Source of the DNA: a virus
DNA: 9,372 nt
Virus genome (UHGV): UHGV-1330501
Reading direction: 5' to 3' (one strand)
Of the stretch, positions 1 to 9,372 are shown in pieces. Below the pieces are notes generated by a model. It was given only the letters and a program-made list of their open reading frames with translations. It made no database searches and was not told the origin of the DNA. Positions within the stretch are counted from its first letter, which is position 1. Each line of letters opens with the position of its first letter. Position numbers and translations under genes: made by a program.

Positions 1-55
1 TTCGATTTTCGCAGCGGCCTTTTCAACATAACGAGTCGTACATTATGCGCACCAA
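1..55. repeat. Left copy of a perfect 55-bp direct repeat (identical to 8400..8454); contains a dif-like XerD-arm/central/XerC-arm element (21..53) and the right half of a terminator stem (10..20). Probably truncated by the window start.
   Basis: Exact identity of 1..55 with 8400..8454; sequence diverges at 56 versus 8455. Plus-strand TTATGCGCACC (43..53) is the reverse complement of the E. coli dif XerC arm GGTGCGCATAA. Confidence 0.85.
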
Positions 56-91: not shown

Positions 92-325
92 TCATTGGTC
101 ACAGACCGTAATCCACTGGCCCAGGACGTCTTTCAGGCAATGTTGGCATAAATCCAGTTTTAAGCGATTACTGTCACCAAAAATTGAACCGTATCCAGCT
201 AAGTGATTAACAGACAGAAACTCATTGAACTCAATGTCATCTACCACCGTCTTCGCATGGCGACCACAGCGATCGCAGGTCTTCGCACATAACATTACAG
301 TATCGCTGGATGTGAAAAATTGCAT
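92..325 (-). CDS. Hypothetical small Cys-rich protein (77 aa), possible zinc-ribbon fold (C-x3-C-x2-C ... C-x2-C); accessory gene with no Ff counterpart.
   Basis: ATG at 325 preceded by strong SD (GAGGAG about 7 nt upstream on minus strand); Cys cluster CAKTCDRC ... CQHC in translation. Confidence 0.55.
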   Translation of the reverse strand: MQFFTSSDTVMLCAKTCDRCGRHAKTVVDDIEFNEFLSVNHLAGYGSIFGDSNRLKLDLCQHCLKDVLGQWITVCDQ

Positions 326-442: not shown

Positions 443-751
443 TCATATAAACCAATAGACCGTCCTTACGCCATTCTGGTTATCAATAACATAGCCGCAT
501 TGTTTCCTTAAAAATTCTTCTGCTAAATCAATGGCTTTTACAGAAATCTCATAAGAAGGAAGTAAAGTGTATCCTTTCCCTTCACTGGCAGCTGCTTTGA
601 TCGCATCCAGAGTATTATCAATCAGTAACAGAGCAAGTGATGCTTCATTTACCTGAGCCGAAGAACTTCTGGCTGCAAGTGTCATTGTTTTTGCTTCTTC
701 CGCTGTAATCGTTCGTTCTGCCAGAGCAGATAAAATCCCATAAGAATCCAT
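443..751 (-). CDS. Hypothetical protein (102 aa), Ala/Leu-rich and probably helical; accessory gene in the position of the Ff noncoding intergenic region.
   Basis: ATG at 751 with GGGG about 7 nt upstream; same strand as phage genes, immediately after the gene IV terminal hairpin. No recognisable family. Confidence 0.5.
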   Translation of the reverse strand: MDSYGILSALAERTITAEEAKTMTLAARSSSAQVNEASLALLLIDNTLDAIKAAASEGKGYTLLPSYEISVKAIDLAEEFLRKQCGYVIDNQNGVRTVYWFI

Positions 752-3533: not shown

Positions 3534-4825
3534 TCACCCCCTTTGCGAAGCAATGAAGTTAAAGAAGTAAAGACATACCAGAACGTAAGGCAATAAAAAA
3601 CCCATGAAAGAACATCTTTAATAGTCAGTAATTTATCGCAACCAATATCAATCTGATAAACCTCTCCGGGAAAAATAATAAAATCAGAGCAGCCGTTACC
3701 ATTGGGTAAATTAGGCAGCATAGCACCTTTATTTAAAAATGCTTCCCATAAAGCACCGTGAGAATCCTTTTCAATTCCCAATTCAGAATCAGCTAAAGTA
3801 GAAGCGCCATCTAATTCAGAGTCGCCCTTTCCATAACGAGAATCACCACCTGAAGGGTCAGCAAAACGGCCAGCCCCCCGCGTAAGATTGTTAATGGAAT
3901 CGTCAAGACGATTTATATTATTCCTGGTTTGTTCATCGGCATTTTTTTTATCATCTGATGAAGTGTCTTTCTCCGTTAATTTATCATGAATATCGCTGGC
4001 TATTTTGGGTGAAGCACCTTCGATCGCAGACTGAATATCACCTTTAGAAAGACTGGAACCACTAGAGCCACCGCCAGAACTACCGCCACCGGACTCACCA
4101 CCGCCAGACTCACCACCACCGGACTCACCACCACCGGACTCACCACCACCGGACTCACCACCGCCGGACTCACCACCGCCGGACTCACCACCGCCAGACT
4201 CACCACCACCATTTTGGGGGGTTGAGGGTTTATCAGAGGGGTCAGCTACAGCACCTGTAGGCTTCCATGTTGCAGCGCAAACAGTACCATCACCCTGACA
4301 AACAATGACACCAGTAGCCTCATATTCACAGCCGTTATAGTAGATATAGCGACCACCATCATATGAATCAACATTATTAAATACACCTTCTTCTGGCGGC
4401 TTCGCTTCACAAATTTCTTCTGGTGTCGGGTCAGTAGGTTTTTCATCAGGAACAGAACGCTGAATATTACCAACAATATAAGCCGTTAAAGACCAATATT
4501 TATCCTTCTGCCCTGGTGAATCGCTGTAAGTACAATCGCCAGTAAAAACAAGACGGAATTCAGAATCAGGCCAGATACCCTCATAAGTTGGTTTAATCCG
4601 AGTAAATACACTCTGAGCACTGGATTTAGCACCCTGACAAGCGGAGGCCTGCATAGCAGCATCAATATAGTAAACCGTTATCTTAGAGCCATCCTGATTG
4701 GTTATTTGCTTACTTTCAGCATAGGCAGAACTTTGATAAGTGGATTTAGTAATGCTTTCCCATGACTCAGCATGTGAAAAAGGAGAAATGAGGACAGCGG
4801 AAAGAATTAATATTTTCCTTCTCAT
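3530..4825 (-). CDS. III: Filamentous phage gene III protein (pIII), minor coat / adsorption protein with Cys-containing N-terminal domains, Gly-rich (GGGES)n linker and C-terminal membrane anchor.
   Basis: Position after gene VIII and its terminator; signal-peptide-like start [19 protein letters not shown] chosen over the longer ORF to 4969, which would overlap gene VIII; Gly-rich linker repeats. Confidence 0.8.
4091..4210 (-). repeat. Tandem array of eight 15-bp units (minus-strand sense CGGTGGTGGTGAGTC and variants) encoding (GGGES)n in the pIII linker, with degenerate copies extending to about 4063.
   Basis: Direct reading of the repeated gactcaccacc(a/g)cc(g/a) units in the plus strand. 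Confidence 0.9.
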
Positions 4826-6699: not shown

Positions 6700-6868
6700 G
6701 AATAAATCCTCAAAATTGCAAAAATGACGACTTACTAACACATGAGTTCAGTAGTTCATTAGTGTTTAAACATTACACCAGTGAGCTAGTGAGTTCAAGA
6801 GGCTTGGATGATATGAGTTCATGAGCATGTATACTCACTTCAAATATTGCATTGAACGAGCGTAAAAA
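6700..6868. promoter_or_regulatory. Divergent intergenic control region between gene II (minus) and the plus-strand accessory operon, with three direct copies of TGAGTTCA (6743..6750, 6790..6797, 6814..6821); candidate operators, promoters and/or plus-strand origin.
   Basis: Direct repeats read from the sequence; location between divergently oriented genes. The first copy lies upstream of the preferred gene II start at 6699. Confidence 0.45.
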
Positions 6869-7051
6869 ATGGCAAAGCGCACGACTTATAACGTGACGGA
6901 AGAAAGAAAAATGAAACTAGAACGACTGGCTATAAATGCCAGTGTAAAACTAGGAAAAACAATTACATGGACAGAGATTTTAGGTTATCTGATTGATAAC
7001 TACTCTAAAGATGCAGCAGAAGATCTCATGTCTGCCAAACAAAAGGATTAA
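6869..7051 (+). CDS. Small basic protein (60 aa), candidate transcriptional regulator (possibly ribbon-helix-helix-like) read divergently from gene II.
   Basis: ATG at 6869 and stop TAA at 7049..7051; a short N-terminal stretch (TTYNVT) followed by charged helical sequence. Function inferred from position and size only. Confidence 0.5.
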   Translation: MAKRTTYNVTEERKMKLERLAINASVKLGKTITWTEILGYLIDNYSKDAAEDLMSAKQKD

Positions 7052-7139: not shown

Positions 7140-7562
7140 ATGAGTAGAAATAACGAAACAAGCGGCGTTGAACTGGTTGTTGTAGGCGTATTTGCTTTCT
7201 GTCTGGCAGTTGTTGCCTGGCTAATGAAAACTTTCGATGTTGAATGGCAAACAGCACTGGAAACTGCGCCTGGCCTGATAGTCTGGCTGCTTGTTGTCGG
7301 TGCGGGGATCTTTTTCGGGATCAAAATGGAAACTGGCCTTATTCGCTGGGGTGCTCCACTGGCGATCGCCCTTCTGATTCCGGTATTCAAGCCAATTCTT
7401 AAGGAAGCTGCCGGAGTTCGTGAAACGGGTGGGCTGGTTTTCGATGATATGGTTTCGTGGTATGGAACTGGCTGGGGAATGTCTCTGATGTTCTTCGGGA
7501 TTCTTATTGTCGGATATGGCCTGCTTTATTGGTGGCACAGAAGAAATTCATATTACTGGTAA
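7140..7562 (+). CDS. Hypothetical integral membrane protein (140 aa, about four hydrophobic segments).
   Basis: Internal ATG at 7140 with AAGGA upstream; four hydrophobic stretches. The longer ORF from 6993 overlaps the regulator gene and the hairpin and is judged an artefact. Confidence 0.6.
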   Translation: MSRNNETSGVELVVVGVFAFCLAVVAWLMKTFDVEWQTALETAPGLIVWLLVVGAGIFFGIKMETGLIRWGAPLAIALLIPVFKPILKEAAGVRETGGLVFDDMVSWYGTGWGMSLMFFGILIVGYGLLYWWHRRNSYYW

Positions 7563-7590
7563 TCAATAAAACGTAGAAGAGAGGAAACAT

Positions 7591-7866
7591 ATGAAACTGA
7601 ATCCTGAGAAATACAATAGAAACATTACCCTGCTATGTCCTGTGTGCGGAAATACAGAGATGGAACACGAGGAAGAGTCTGAAGTCGTTAGATGTGTAGG
7701 CTGCGGGAAAGAATTTACTAATGATGAGTTAATCCAAGAAAACGGGGTGAGTATTGACGCTCATGTAGATGAAATAAAAGAAGAGTTAACAAAAGACATT
7801 CAAAAACAGTTTAACGACATGCTCAAAAAGGCATTTAAGGGAAGTAAGAATATAAGGATCAAATAA
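7591..7866 (+). CDS. Hypothetical zinc-ribbon protein (91 aa; CPVC-x14-CVGC followed by an acidic/basic helical tail).
   Basis: ATG at 7591 with GAGGAAA SD; two CxxC pairs; AT-rich composition distinct from the phage core; stop overlaps the next start (TAATG). Confidence 0.65.
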   Translation: MKLNPEKYNRNITLLCPVCGNTEMEHEEESEVVRCVGCGKEFTNDELIQENGVSIDAHVDEIKEELTKDIQKQFNDMLKKAFKGSKNIRIK

Positions 7867-8345
7867 TGACAACAAGTGATGCCATCGCTTTAGCTGCGCT
7901 TGTAGTATCGATTTACACTATCATATCGTCAGAAATGAAATCGAGAAAAAGCGATAGAGAACAAAAGGTTATAAAGGATGAGCAAGACAGGTTACGTAAG
8001 TTGCTTCTGGAAAAAGAAACAAAGTCAGCAATTAATGAGATGAAAGCTGAGCTTGGTGCTCGCCTCGTAAAAATAGCCAAAAACAACTATAGGCTCAAGA
8101 TATTTAATAGAGGGAGAGTTGAGGCTAAAAATATAGAGATTCATTTCCCTGATAACGATGGAAATGAATATCTTTCAATGCATGATGTAGAAGATAAATT
8201 TCCATATGAGGTATTACACCCGCAACATGGAATTGAAATTTTAGCGGGAATAAGCTTTGGAAGTAAAACTAAATACCGAATAAAACTCATATGGGATGAC
8301 AATTATAAAAGAAGAAATGAAGAGGAGTTTTTCATTTCTATATAA
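7866..8345 (+). CDS. Hypothetical membrane-anchored protein (159 aa): N-terminal hydrophobic helix, charged coiled-coil-like segment, C-terminal globular domain.
   Basis: ATG overlapping the upstream stop; N-terminal AIALAALVVSIYTIISS; AT-rich; followed by a strong terminator. Confidence 0.65.
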   Translation: MTTSDAIALAALVVSIYTIISSEMKSRKSDREQKVIKDEQDRLRKLLLEKETKSAINEMKAELGARLVKIAKNNYRLKIFNRGRVEAKNIEIHFPDNDGNEYLSMHDVEDKFPYEVLHPQHGIEILAGISFGSKTKYRIKLIWDDNYKRRNEEEFFISI

Positions 8346-8385
8346 ATTGGTTCGCACAATGACGTTATGCTAAAGAGGCCGCTGC

Positions 8386-8422
8386 GGGATTCGATTTTCG
8401 CAGCGGCCTTTTCAACATAACG
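8386..8422 (+). terminator. Intrinsic terminator: 11-bp GC-rich stem (AGGCCGCTGCG / CGCAGCGGCCT), 12-nt loop, then TTTT.
   Basis: Perfect inverted repeat 8386..8396 / 8409..8419 followed by a T-tract, 40 nt after the 159-aa gene stop. Confidence 0.75.
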
Positions 8423-8454
8423 AGTCGTACATTATGCGCACCAAAATTATAGAG
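8400..8454. repeat. Right copy of the 55-bp direct repeat, carrying the dif-like element (XerC arm TTATGCGCACC at 8442..8452); putative right attachment site of the prophage.
   Basis: Exact identity with 1..55; overlaps the loop and 3-prime half of the terminator. Confidence 0.85.
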
Positions 8455-8484
8455 GCTCAATGCTAATGTTCTATTTGTGGCTCA

Positions 8485-9372
8485 TTGGAGGCACTCAGTA
8501 TAATCCGGGAGCACTACCGTGATTTTGGCCCCACGCTGGCGCGGGAAAAGCTGGAGGAAGTTCACGGTCTGGTCCTTGGAAAGGAAACCATCCGACGTCT
8601 CATGATAAACGCGGGACTCTGGATCCCCCGCAGACAACGCGCACCGAAAATTCATCAGCCTCGTTACCGGCGTCCTTGTACTGGCGAGCTGATACAAATT
8701 GATGGCTGCGACCACCACTGAATACGGTAAACCGATGATCCTCTACAGCGATAAAGCCAGCGTATTCAGAGTCAATAATAAGCACGCCACCACCGGTCTC
8801 GGCGATACCCAGTTTGCCAGGGCCATGCGCTGCCTTAATATTACTCCTTTGTGTGCTGAAACCAGCCAGGCAAAAGGCCGCGTTGAACGTGCTCATTTGA
8901 CACTTCAGGACCGACTCGTTAAGGAGCTCAGGCTTAAGGGGATCTGTACAATAGAAGCGGCCAATGCATTTGCAGAAGAATACATGGCGGATTATAACCG
9001 GCGCTTTGCCAAAGAACCCTTGCATGATTTTAACGCGTACCGGCCGCTGGCATTAGACGATGACCTTGATGCAGAATTTACCTGGCGAGAGCCTCGCCGG
9101 GTATCAAAAAATCTGACTGTACAATACGATAAAATGCTCTATCTGATTGAGGACAACGAGTACAGTCGAAGAGCCATCGGCAAGTATATTGATGTCTGGC
9201 ATTATCCTGACGGACATAAGGAGCTGCGACTAAATGGCGTGCTGCTACCCTACTCCACCTATGACCGGCTTTCTGAGGTTGAGCCCGTCGCCATTGTAGA
9301 TAACAAGAGACTTGGCCATGTGTTGGATGTTGCCCGTCAGGTCCAGAGAAAACGGGACAATAATCGCTCACT
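8485..9372 (+). pseudogene. DDE-type transposase of an insertion sequence (retroviral-integrase-like catalytic core), interrupted by a frameshift near 8719 and running off the window end; family not determined.
   Basis: Frame 1 (TTG start 8485) ends ...IQIDGCDHH at TGA 8719..8721; frame 2 continues from 8720 with EYGKPMILYSDKASVF ... AKGRVERAHLTLQDRL (DDE-like D, D, E motifs), open to 9372. Confidence 0.7.

What the first reader, a model, noticed from the sequence alone, without database searches (positions are those of the whole stretch)
7591..8345. AT-rich, overlapping two-gene cassette (zinc-ribbon protein plus membrane-anchored protein) inside the prophage
The genes at 7591..7866 and 7866..8345 overlap (TAATG), are visibly more AT-rich than the phage core, lie on the opposite strand from every morphogenesis gene, and end at a strong terminator next to the attachment repeat. 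The first is a small CPVC ... CVGC zinc-ribbon protein; the second has one N-terminal transmembrane helix, a charged coiled-coil-like segment and a C-terminal domain. I recognise neither as a known family. Foreign composition, tight coupling and position at the prophage edge fit a moron-type accessory system (superinfection exclusion, anti-phage defence or a toxin/immunity pair), but this is inference.
Basis: partly seen in the sequence, partly recalled or inferred. Interest (0 to 1): 0.8.

Follow-up and report, generated by a model that had tools for sequence, protein, structure and literature searches.

The report
Mobile zinc-ribbon/membrane gene pair in prophage
The two overlapping genes are real and form a mobile pair of unknown function that this E. 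coli filamentous prophage carries as swappable cargo; the pair recurs across many bacterial phyla, often beside anti-phage defence genes, so it is a good untested candidate for a new defence or toxin-antitoxin-like system.

Summary
Gene A (7591-7866, 91 aa, CPVC...CVGC zinc ribbon) and gene B (7866-8345, 159 aa) overlap by one base (TAATG). B is one N-terminal membrane helix, a long stalk helix and an Ig-like beta-sandwich. Together they are the lowest-GC stretch of the window and lie at the edge of a CUS-1/YpfPhi-type inovirus prophage integrated at dif.

One correction: the "strong terminator" is the phage attachment site itself. It consists of two inverted dif-like sites around a GC-rich stem, as in CTXphi.

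The moron reading is supported:
- Near-identical sibling prophages carry other genes in this slot.
- A lies directly upstream of B in every sampled locus where the flank is available, from Enterobacterales to Bacteroidota, Firmicutes, Coriobacteriia and an archaeal MAG.
- Contexts include type I R-M operons, TIR/HEPN/PIN/Avs-like islands and conjugative plasmids.
- Both genes are under strong purifying selection (dN/dS about 0.06) and co-diverge (Mantel r 0.79).

Neither protein matches a characterised family, a known defence system or a solved structure. Best guess (inferred, about 0.5): a two-component abortive-infection/TA-like module in which the cytoplasmic zinc-ribbon protein controls the membrane-anchored partner. 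No experiment exists.

The parts
6808..6835 (+). Weak sigma-70-like promoter in the gene II / orf60 divergent intergenic region; candidate promoter of the + strand operon (orf60-orf140-A-B)
   Evidence: 9 of 12 consensus match, and the number of such sites is not above the shuffle expectation. It is the only + strand promoter-like site upstream of A. That it is functional is inferred.
6869..7051 (+). orf60, a conserved small phage gene (PHROG 2503) at the rstR-like position. It is context, not part of the mobile pair
   Evidence: Present in cassette-less sibling prophages. Replaced by an HTH regulator in strains A4 and APEC E19057.
7140..7562 (+). orf140, a multi-pass membrane protein (PHROG 4174) that accompanies the pair only in inoviruses. 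It is context, not part of the universal module
   Evidence: DNA homology of the non-phage copies starts only at 7574.
7574..7590 (+). 5' boundary of the mobile module, with the Shine-Dalgarno sequence of A (AGAGGA, 7580-7585)
   Evidence: homology with the Serratia plasmid and Trabulsiella copies begins at 7574.
7591..7866 (+). Gene A: 91-aa cytoplasmic protein with a CPxCG...CxxC zinc ribbon (about residues 12-45), a long helix (52-83) and a highly conserved basic tail KKAFKGSKNIRIK
   Evidence: (NF047912, 65 bits).
7866..8345 (+). Gene B: 159-aa bitopic inner-membrane protein (membrane helix 6-22, N-out/C-in) with a stalk helix carrying an invariant LLLEKE motif and a cytoplasmic Ig-like beta-sandwich (63-158)
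   Evidence: (PHROG 6723, E 1e-96).
8349..8375 (+). attP dif-like site 1: GGTTCGCACAA / TGACG / TTATGCTAAAG
   Evidence: Retained after different cargos in sibling prophages and on Klebsiella/ColV plasmids.
8373..8412 (.). GC-rich 17-bp stem-loop followed by TTTT. It is the central stem of the attP hairpin and, as RNA, a plausible intrinsic terminator of the A-B transcript
   Evidence: I2; -39.8 kcal/mol, z -6.3.
8410..8442 (-). attP dif-like site 2: GGTGCGCATAA / TGTACGACTCG / TTATGTTGAAA (perfect XerC arm, 11-nt central region)
   Evidence: The same site lies at window 21-53.
8390..8444 (+). 55-nt perfect direct repeat of window 1-55 (unit length 8,389 nt)
   Evidence: D3.

Best explanation
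A and B form an autonomous, horizontally mobile two-gene accessory module. This CUS-1/YpfPhi-type inovirus carries it as cargo in the variable slot next to its attP, and it is probably expressed from the prophage's + strand (lysogeny-side) operon.

Proposed mechanism (inferred): it is a two-component abortive-infection/toxin-antitoxin-like system of the 'cytoplasmic partner plus membrane partner' kind.
- B is anchored in the inner membrane by a conserved N-terminal helix and presents a coiled stalk and an Ig-like domain to the cytoplasm.
- A is made in fixed stoichiometry through translational coupling and docks on B, most plausibly through its invariant C-terminal tail.
- A's zinc ribbon acts as the sensor or regulator.
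- On a trigger such as phage infection, the complex changes state and B's membrane helices assemble and compromise the membrane. This stops the infected cell and protects the lysogen population.

Shown: the gene pair, its architecture, its mobility, strict co-inheritance, purifying selection and defence-island/mobile-element context.
Inferred: expression, A-B binding, the trigger, membrane damage and any phage-resistance phenotype.
For: Cargo status: the cassette is in 28 of 5,426 E. coli genomes, whereas the phage core is in 54. Sibling prophages at the same dif site carry unrelated genes in the slot.

Strict pairing: A lies directly upstream of B on the same strand, 0-56 nt apart, in 56 of 57 loci seeded by either protein; the exception is a contig end. 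The same holds in 9 further loci.

Co-divergence and selection: Mantel r is 0.79, reached by 0 of 2,000 permutations. dN/dS is about 0.06 for B, and A has dN 0 against dS 0.20.

Breadth: B has 1,283 clusters at 50% identity, nearly all 150-160 aa. A has 1,135 hits, with the listed top 120 nearly all about 90 aa.

Context:
- inside type I R-M operons in Bacteroidales;
- next to SIR2-nSTAND plus type I R-M;
- BrxR, type I R-M and Mrr;
- TIR, HEPN and PIN;
- a SNIPE nuclease;
- TA modules and NACHT on Klebsiella contigs;
- 93 plasmids, 85 of them conjugative.
Among 280 neighbour ORFs there were 9 type I S subunits, 7 integrases, and ThsB-TIR, Schlafen/AlbA_2 and AAA_21 proteins.

Architecture: the models are confident and contain no enzymatic fold. 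The membrane helix is more conserved than a mere anchor needs (A11 and L12 invariant; D5, I7 and A8 at least 90%). A's tail is nearly invariant yet predicted with low confidence, as expected for a segment that folds on a partner. A-type ribbons also give a weak match (E 3e-4) to the C-terminus of HEC-08, an experimentally validated HEPN defence protein.
Against: - There is no experimental data of any kind, and no paper mentions these proteins.
- B has no PADLOC hit, and A has only weak partial zinc-ribbon hits.
- Some loci lie among housekeeping genes (Acinetobacter, Sulfuricurvum).
- The context enrichment was not tested against a genome-wide background.
- A-B binding could not be modelled because no multimer prediction was available.
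- A single membrane helix is a weak basis for a pore.
- The promoter assignment rests on a consensus match that is no better than chance.
Confidence: 0.5

Rival explanations
1. Pure addiction (toxin-antitoxin) module. B is a membrane toxin and A is its labile antitoxin. The pair stabilises the prophage, plasmid or island that carries it and has no dedicated anti-phage role.
For: The organisation is the classic one: a small upstream gene overlapping the downstream gene. The pair lies on conjugative plasmids, prophages and islands, next to other TA modules. There is a weak zinc-ribbon similarity to MqsA-type antitoxins (E 1e-3) and a weak holin-like hit for B residues 1-63 (E 3e-3). YpfPhi-type phages are unstable as episomes (PMC4266046), so a stabiliser would be useful.
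Against: A lacks any HTH or other DNA-binding domain beyond the ribbon and fails the MqsA cut-off (18.9 against 61.8 bits). B matches no known toxin family. Embedding inside type I R-M operons is more typical of defence genes. This explanation and defence are not mutually exclusive.
Confidence: 0.2
2. Membrane-tethered regulator. B holds A at the membrane, and a signal releases A. A's TFIIB/eS27-like zinc ribbon then binds RNA polymerase, the ribosome or nucleic acid. The output is a block of gene expression rather than membrane damage.
Against: All ribbon matches are below family cut-offs and not significant structurally (best Foldseek E 0.33). The conserved membrane-helix face is not needed for a simple tether.
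Confidence: 0.15
3. Modulator of type I restriction-modification (Lar-like restriction alleviation or anti-restriction). It would protect the incoming element's DNA or tune a resident R-M system.
For: The best Pfam hit of A is Lar_restr_allev (E 9e-4). The pair lies within or next to type I R-M operons in several lineages.
Against: The Lar hit is below the cut-off (19.9 against 28.6 bits) and covers only a generic CxxC ribbon. Most loci have no type I R-M within 6 kb. This reading does not explain membrane-anchored B.
Confidence: 0.06
4. Inovirus-specific function: superinfection exclusion against related filamentous phages, or a role in the phage's own lysogeny or Xer integration.
For: The position is next to attP in the lysogeny-side operon. 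Prophages often exclude their relatives.
Against: The pair is absent from at least 99%-identical sibling prophages that are integrated at the same site, so it is dispensable for the phage. It is present in Bacteroidota, Firmicutes, Coriobacteriia and a Methanoculleus MAG with no inovirus genes or attP-like element nearby.
Confidence: 0.05

Closest known systems
CUS-1 (E. coli O18:K1:H7) and YpfPhi (Yersinia pestis) dif-integrated filamentous prophages, specifically the unexplained attL-side ORFs ('orf1/orf1a' in CUS-1, YPO2271/2272 in YpfPhi)
   Same: The phage type, the integration at dif beside hipBA, and the position of two function-unknown ORFs that differ between otherwise near-identical phages are all the same (PMC4266046). 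Strain UM146 carries the cassette at 99.7% identity.
   Different: Identity of A/B with CUS-1 orf1/orf1a could not be verified because the original paper is not held. The review treats these ORFs as having no homologues. Here they have more than 1,000 relatives across phyla.
Lambda RexAB: a prophage lysogeny-operon pair of a cytoplasmic sensor and a membrane effector (from own knowledge)
   Same: Two adjacent genes are expressed with the prophage's regulatory operon. One product is cytoplasmic and one is an inner-membrane protein. Neither has an enzymatic domain. Both are accessory to the phage.
   Different: No sequence or fold similarity was found. B has one membrane helix plus an Ig-like domain, whereas RexB is a multi-pass channel. 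A is a 91-aa zinc-ribbon protein. The resemblance is one of logic only, and no phenotype is known here.
HEC-08 and PDC-S64 (PADLOC; Payne et al., bioRxiv 10.1101/2024.01.29.577857)
   Same: They contain A-like zinc-ribbon segments (E 3e-4 and 4e-7). HEC-08 is a validated defence protein found embedded in other defence systems, as the A-B pair is in type I R-M operons.
   Different: HEC-08 is a single protein with an N-terminal HEPN RNase. A has no such domain and always pairs with B. The matches cover only about 55 residues.
Accessory modules of Pf inoviruses: the KKP kinase-phosphatase defence module (PMC11341870) and the PfiT/PfiA toxin-antitoxin (PMC12328805)
   Same: These are precedents that inovirus prophages carry defence or TA cargo outside the core genes.
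   Different: The proteins, host and mechanisms are unrelated.
CTXphi attP (forked hairpin of two inverted dif-like sites; Xer-mediated integration)
   Same: The element at 8349-8442 has two inverted dif-like sites around a stem, there is no integrase, and a perfect dif lies at the other prophage end (PMC4246890 was listed but not read).
   Different: The spacer here is a short GC-rich stem that also looks like a terminator. The central regions are 5 and 11 nt. Function was not tested.

Membership tests
NCBIfam NF047912 (ECs_2282 family putative zinc-binding protein), for protein A | HMM score at or above the curated cut-off of 37 bits | tested here: met
   65.2 bits, E 3.6e-18, residues 12-65. 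The family name carries no known function.
PHROG 6723, for protein B | Full-length profile match | tested here: met
   E 9.6e-97, positions 1-159 of 159. Function unknown.
Known anti-phage defence systems (PADLOC-DB v2.0.0) | Significant match of the system's proteins to a PADLOC model | tested here: not met
   B has no hit at E up to 1. A has only partial zinc-ribbon hits: PDC-S64 4e-7, HEC-08 3e-4, PDC-M14A 2e-3. Systems described after 2023 were not covered.
Anti-phage defence systems in general | Genomic association with known defence genes or defence islands | tested here: inconclusive
   Many loci lie beside R-M, TIR, HEPN, PIN, Avs-like, BrxR or SNIPE genes. Some do not. No genome-wide background was computed.
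Anti-phage defence systems in general | Reduced phage plating or burst when the system is expressed | not testable with these tools
   Requires wet-lab work.
Type II toxin-antitoxin systems | Two small adjacent co-transcribed genes, with the antitoxin usually first | tested here: met
   There is a one-base overlap here, and gaps of 0-56 nt in all sampled loci.
Type II toxin-antitoxin systems | Toxin or antitoxin belongs to a recognised toxin/antitoxin superfamily | tested here: not met
   MqsA family scores 18.9 bits against a cut-off of 61.8. B has no Pfam, NCBIfam or PDB relative.
Type II toxin-antitoxin systems | Toxicity of one partner, neutralised by the other | not testable with these tools
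   Requires expression experiments.
Holins | Small membrane protein encoded with an endolysin in a lysis cassette | tested here: not met
   There is only a weak hit of residues 1-63 to PHROG 1350 (E 3e-3). No endolysin is nearby. B also has a 95-residue cytoplasmic beta-sandwich.
Lar restriction-alleviation proteins (PF14354) | Score above the Pfam gathering threshold | tested here: not met
   19.9 bits against 28.6.
Inovirus core or conserved genes | Present in all close relatives of the phage; homology to characterised inovirus proteins | tested here: not met
   Absent from at least 99%-identical siblings. No Pfam or PHROG match to any characterised inovirus protein.
CTXphi-type Xer-dependent attP (for the hairpin at 8349-8442) | Two inverted dif-like sites able to pair in a hairpin; integration at host dif; no integrase | tested here: met
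   A perfect dif lies at the other end in L001 and L010. No integrase ORF is present in the window.

The most novel reading that the evidence does not exclude
A-B is a previously unrecognised, very widespread family of minimal immune systems with no enzyme. A zinc-ribbon sensor is docked through its invariant C-terminal tail on the Ig-like domain of a single-pass membrane protein, and the complex converts detection of infection into membrane failure or a block of gene expression. In Enterobacterales the module is spread by dif-integrating filamentous phages. The Xer-recombination scars of such phages deposit it on ColV and Klebsiella conjugative plasmids.
Probability: 0.3. Interest if true: 0.75.

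Novelty: new member of a known kind. Interest (0 to 1): 0.55.

Why it matters
- It would give a function to the long-unexplained variable ORFs of the CUS-1 prophage, which is found in extraintestinal pathogenic E. coli.
- It would add a very compact, enzyme-free two-gene system to the defence/TA repertoire. The system reaches from E. coli to Bacteroidota and archaea (more than 1,000 sequence clusters).
- It would show that dif-integrating filamentous phages have a cargo hot spot next to attP that shuttles such modules, including onto virulence (ColV) plasmids.
- For phage therapy, carriage of the pair could affect the susceptibility of clinical E. coli and Klebsiella.

Tried and rejected
- **Deposited phage genomes:** DNA and protein searches found nothing.
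- **Literature:** searches by accessions, family names and keywords found no description of the pair. The original CUS-1 paper (PMC135385) is not held.
- **puvA:** I considered that this CUS-1 virulence gene might be in the cassette. I rejected this because the review assigns puvA to the receptor-binding virion protein.
- **orf140:** I considered it as a third component and rejected it. It accompanies the pair only in inoviruses, and the homology of non-phage copies starts after it.
- **The 123-127-aa gene that follows the pair on Klebsiella/ColV plasmids:** it is not universal and has no annotation.
- **Alternative cargos of sibling prophages:** they gave no informative family hits.
- **The hairpin as a simple terminator:** I replaced this reading with attP, although a terminator role is not excluded.

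Full report
**What the window is.** The window is one 8,389-nt unit of a filamentous (inovirus) prophage. It is bounded by a perfect 55-nt direct repeat (1-55 and 8390-8444) and followed by a degenerate IS. On the minus strand lie gene II (Pfam Phage_CRI and G2P_X_C) and, by RefSeq annotation of near-identical copies, the ssDNA-binding protein, major coat, attachment protein, DUF5455, Zot-like and secretin genes. In complete E. coli genomes the same element lies beside hipBA at the dif locus. The genome plan, the integration at dif and the two small ORFs at the far end match the CUS-1/YpfPhi family described in PMC4266046.

**Check of the observation.**
- Both ORFs exist as stated. A's stop (7864-7866) and B's start (7866-7868) share one base, and each start is preceded by a Shine-Dalgarno sequence.
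- The cassette has 35.4% GC against 41.2% for the core. It is the lowest-GC 755-nt stretch in the window, but the gap is modest.
- It lies opposite all morphogenesis genes but on the same strand as orf60 and the membrane protein orf140. No promoter-like site separates these from A, so A-B look like the distal genes of the operon that diverges from gene II. That promoter match is itself weak.
- A's four cysteines are invariant.
- B's AlphaFold model (pLDDT 83.5) shows a single helix at residues 3-59 and a beta-sandwich at 63-158. The hydrophobic segment at 6-22 is followed by a K/R-rich stretch in all homologues, so the topology is N-out/C-in.

**Correction: the "terminator" is the attachment site.** The hairpin at 8359-8428 is very stable (-39.8 kcal/mol, z -6.3). 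Around its GC-rich stem lie two inverted dif-like sites:
- GGTTCGCACAA-TGACG-TTATGCTAAAG (8349-8375, + strand);
- GGTGCGCATAA-TGTACGACTCG-TTATGTTGAAA (8410-8442, - strand).

A perfect E. coli dif lies at the opposite prophage end in two other genomes. This is the CTXphi-style forked-hairpin attP. The stem followed by TTTT may also terminate the A-B transcript, but that is inference. The window's own left end carries site 2 rather than dif, which suggests the window begins inside a tandem array. Tandem copies are seen in strain A4.

**The pair is cargo, not phage machinery.**
- The pII-pV core occurs in 54 of 5,426 complete E. coli genomes (48 of them at 99% identity or more). The cassette occurs in 28.
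- Sibling prophages at the same site carry other genes between orf140 or orf60 and attP: a 250-aa ORF in VL46, a 46+91+230-aa set in F11, and a 110-aa ORF in APEC E19057. None is annotated.
- Conversely, strain A4 has orf140-A-B at 96% identity in a different inovirus backbone, whose secretin is only 27% identical and which has an HTH regulator instead of orf60.
- This fits the review's statement that CUS-1 and YpfPhi differ in two unexplained attL-side ORFs. I could not verify that these are A and B.

**The pair is an autonomous module found far beyond inoviruses.**
- B has 72 close homologues and 1,283 clusters at 50% identity, almost all 150-160 aa.
- A has 1,135 profile hits; the listed top 120 are nearly all about 90 aa.
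- I scanned 100,044 species genomes with a B profile and IMG/VR with an A profile. HMM checks then showed A immediately upstream of B, on the same strand and 0-56 nt apart, in 56 of 57 loci. The exception ends at a contig edge. Nine further loci from plasmids and diverse genomes showed the same arrangement.
- Hosts include Enterobacterales, Proteus, Vibrio, Acinetobacter, Alcanivorax, beta- and alphaproteobacteria, Desulfobulbus, Sulfuricurvum, Bacteroidales, Flavobacteriales, Coriobacteriia, Peptococcaceae and a Methanoculleus MAG.
- Only 8 loci contain recognisable relatives of this phage's core genes. The attP-like element is confined to enterobacterial loci.
- Pairwise distances of A and B correlate (Mantel r 0.79; 0 of 2,000 permutations reach it).
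- Both genes are under strong purifying selection. B has dN/dS of about 0.06 in four comparisons. A has dN 0 against dS 0.20 versus strain A4.

**Context.**
- In Bacteroidales the pair is embedded in type I R-M operons: hsdM, a Schlafen/AlbA_2 gene, A-B, hsdS, an unknown gene, hsdR.
- Elsewhere it lies beside SIR2-nSTAND plus type I R-M; BrxR, type I R-M and Mrr; TIR, HEPN_Swt1, PIN and SymE; a SNIPE/T5orf172 nuclease; IS110 and Mrr fragments; and TacAT, ParDE and NACHT on Klebsiella contigs.
- Bulk annotation of 280 neighbour ORFs found 9 type I specificity subunits, 7 integrases, and ThsB-TIR, AAA_21 and SMC-type ATPases.
- A version about 38% identical is on 93 plasmids, 85 of them conjugative and 52 from E. 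coli, including an APEC ColV plasmid.
- Two lineages (Acinetobacter, Sulfuricurvum) have it among housekeeping genes.
- I did not compute a genome-wide background, so the enrichment is qualitative.

**What the proteins look like.**
- A is a zinc ribbon of the eS27/TFIIB type, then a 30-residue helix, then the near-invariant tail KKAFKGSKNIRIK, which is modelled with low confidence. No structural or PDB sequence match is significant beyond the generic ribbon.
- Weak PADLOC hits place similar ribbons in PDC-S64 and in HEC-08. HEC-08 is a validated HEPN defence protein with C-terminal zinc ribbons.
- There is no enzymatic domain in either protein.
- Conserved positions in B cluster in three places: the membrane helix (D5, I7, A8, A11, L12), the stalk (LLLEKE) and three sandwich motifs (K78-x-x-N81-x-G83, K111-x-P113, W143-x-D145).

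**Most likely mechanism.** I commit to a two-component abortive-infection/TA-like module. A is cytoplasmic and is produced in fixed ratio through translational coupling. It docks on the cytoplasmic Ig-like domain of membrane-anchored B, most plausibly through its tail, and acts as sensor or regulator. Activation lets B's membrane helices assemble and damage the membrane. This has the logic of lambda RexAB (my own knowledge) without any homology. The steps from expression onwards are all inferred. My confidence is about 0.5 for this class of function and about 0.95 that the pair is a mobile accessory module.

Rivals:
- a pure addiction module (0.2);
- B as a tether that releases A to act on transcription or translation (0.15);
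- a Lar-like modulator of type I R-M (0.06; the Lar hit is below the cut-off);
- an inovirus-specific exclusion or life-cycle role (0.05; contradicted by its dispensability and its phylogenetic spread).

**How the module moves.**
- In a Serratia conjugative plasmid and in Trabulsiella and Lonsdalea chromosomes, DNA homology to the window runs from 7574 (just before A's ribosome-binding site) to 8416-8418 (the end of the stem and T-run). It stops at the central region of dif-like site 2.
- On Klebsiella and ColV plasmids the coding DNA is only about 67% identical. Even so, the 75-nt piece comprising site 1, the stem and the XerD arm of site 2 is 89-95% identical. It sits after an extra third gene and again breaks at the central region.
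- That is what a Xer-mediated integration scar of an inovirus would look like. In Enterobacterales the module therefore seems to have reached plasmids as inovirus cargo. This is inference.

**Novelty and verdict.** No paper or database assigns a function to either protein. PADLOC 2023 does not contain the pair. If it is a defence system, it is a new family of a known kind. Defence candidates are now common, and nothing here is experimental. On the other hand, the pair is unusually compact, very widespread, strictly conserved, and sits in a clinically relevant prophage family. It also offers a tidy explanation for the long-standing unknown ORFs. Interest: 0.55.

Noticed in passing
window 8349-8442 (also 21-53): The hairpin called a terminator is a CTXphi-like attP. 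Two inverted dif-like sites flank a GC-rich stem, and a perfect dif lies at the other prophage end in other genomes (L001 6619-6646, L010 2239-2266). The window's left end carries site 2 rather than dif, which suggests the window starts inside a tandem prophage array.
   Followed up: yes
L004 8903-8972; L060 9885-9954; L061 about 9480-9550; L012 about 10480-10550: Plasmid and chromosomal copies of the module outside prophages keep attP site 1, the stem and the XerD arm of site 2, then diverge in the central region. On Klebsiella/ColV plasmids this 75-nt piece is 89-95% identical, whereas the genes are about 67% identical. It looks like a Xer-recombination scar of an inovirus on plasmids.
   Followed up: partly
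window about 8455-9372 (runs off the end): This is a degenerate ISNCY-family IS copy with two internal deletions relative to the intact copy in L003, starting about 12 nt from the XerC arm of the dif-like site. Intact ISNCY transposase genes also sit directly upstream of the pair on the Serratia plasmid (L061 7215-8612) and on Klebsiella contigs (L003/L006 6203-7603). I recall, but did not test, that IS1202-group elements target Xer sites.
   Followed up: partly
window 7140-7562 (+): orf140 is a multi-pass membrane protein (PHROG 4174) of unknown function. It is conserved in the + strand operon of this inovirus family, including most cassette-less siblings, and it travels with A-B between different inovirus backbones.
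   Followed up: partly
L062 6849-7601; L063 6350-7471; L064 7070-7402: Sibling prophages carry alternative cargo in the same slot: a 250-aa ORF, a 46+91+230-aa set and a 110-aa ORF. None has an informative family hit. This makes the slot a hot spot of unknown genes worth screening as a whole.
   Followed up: partly
L003-L006 8517-8900; L060 9511-9882: A third small gene (123-127 aa, no family hit) follows the pair in the plasmid-borne variant, between B and the attP remnant. It is absent from the prophage version.
   Followed up: partly
L018-L027, L048: Identical copies of the pair (43% identical to the window's B), with the same downstream genes, occur in Variovorax, Xenophilus, Hydrogenophaga, Stutzerimonas, a Rhizobiaceae MAG, a Lysobacterales MAG and a 'Bacteroidetes' MAG. 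This points to very recent spread on a shared mobile element, or to mis-binned contigs.
   Followed up: no
L010 (JARKOR010000214.1): A contig labelled as a Candidatus Nanosynbacter MAG carries this E. coli prophage with near-identical proteins (B 100%, core proteins 93-100%). This is almost certainly a binning contaminant.
   Followed up: no
window 4038-4225 (-): Nine 15-nt tandem repeats encode a (GGGES)n linker in the attachment protein pIII. The repeat number and pIII identity vary between otherwise identical prophages (about 92% in L001 and L010).
   Followed up: no
window 92-325 and 443-751 (-): The two small ORFs at the other prophage end (PHROGs 5435 and 4115) appear to correspond to YPO2281 and YPO2280a, judging by position. 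They have no known function. The 77-aa protein also has a CxxC motif.
   Followed up: no
E. coli EC5502 (NZ_CP092647.1), strain A4 (L002): The prophage and cassette occur in many copies in some genomes: 16 matching places in EC5502, and a tandem duplication in A4.
   Followed up: no
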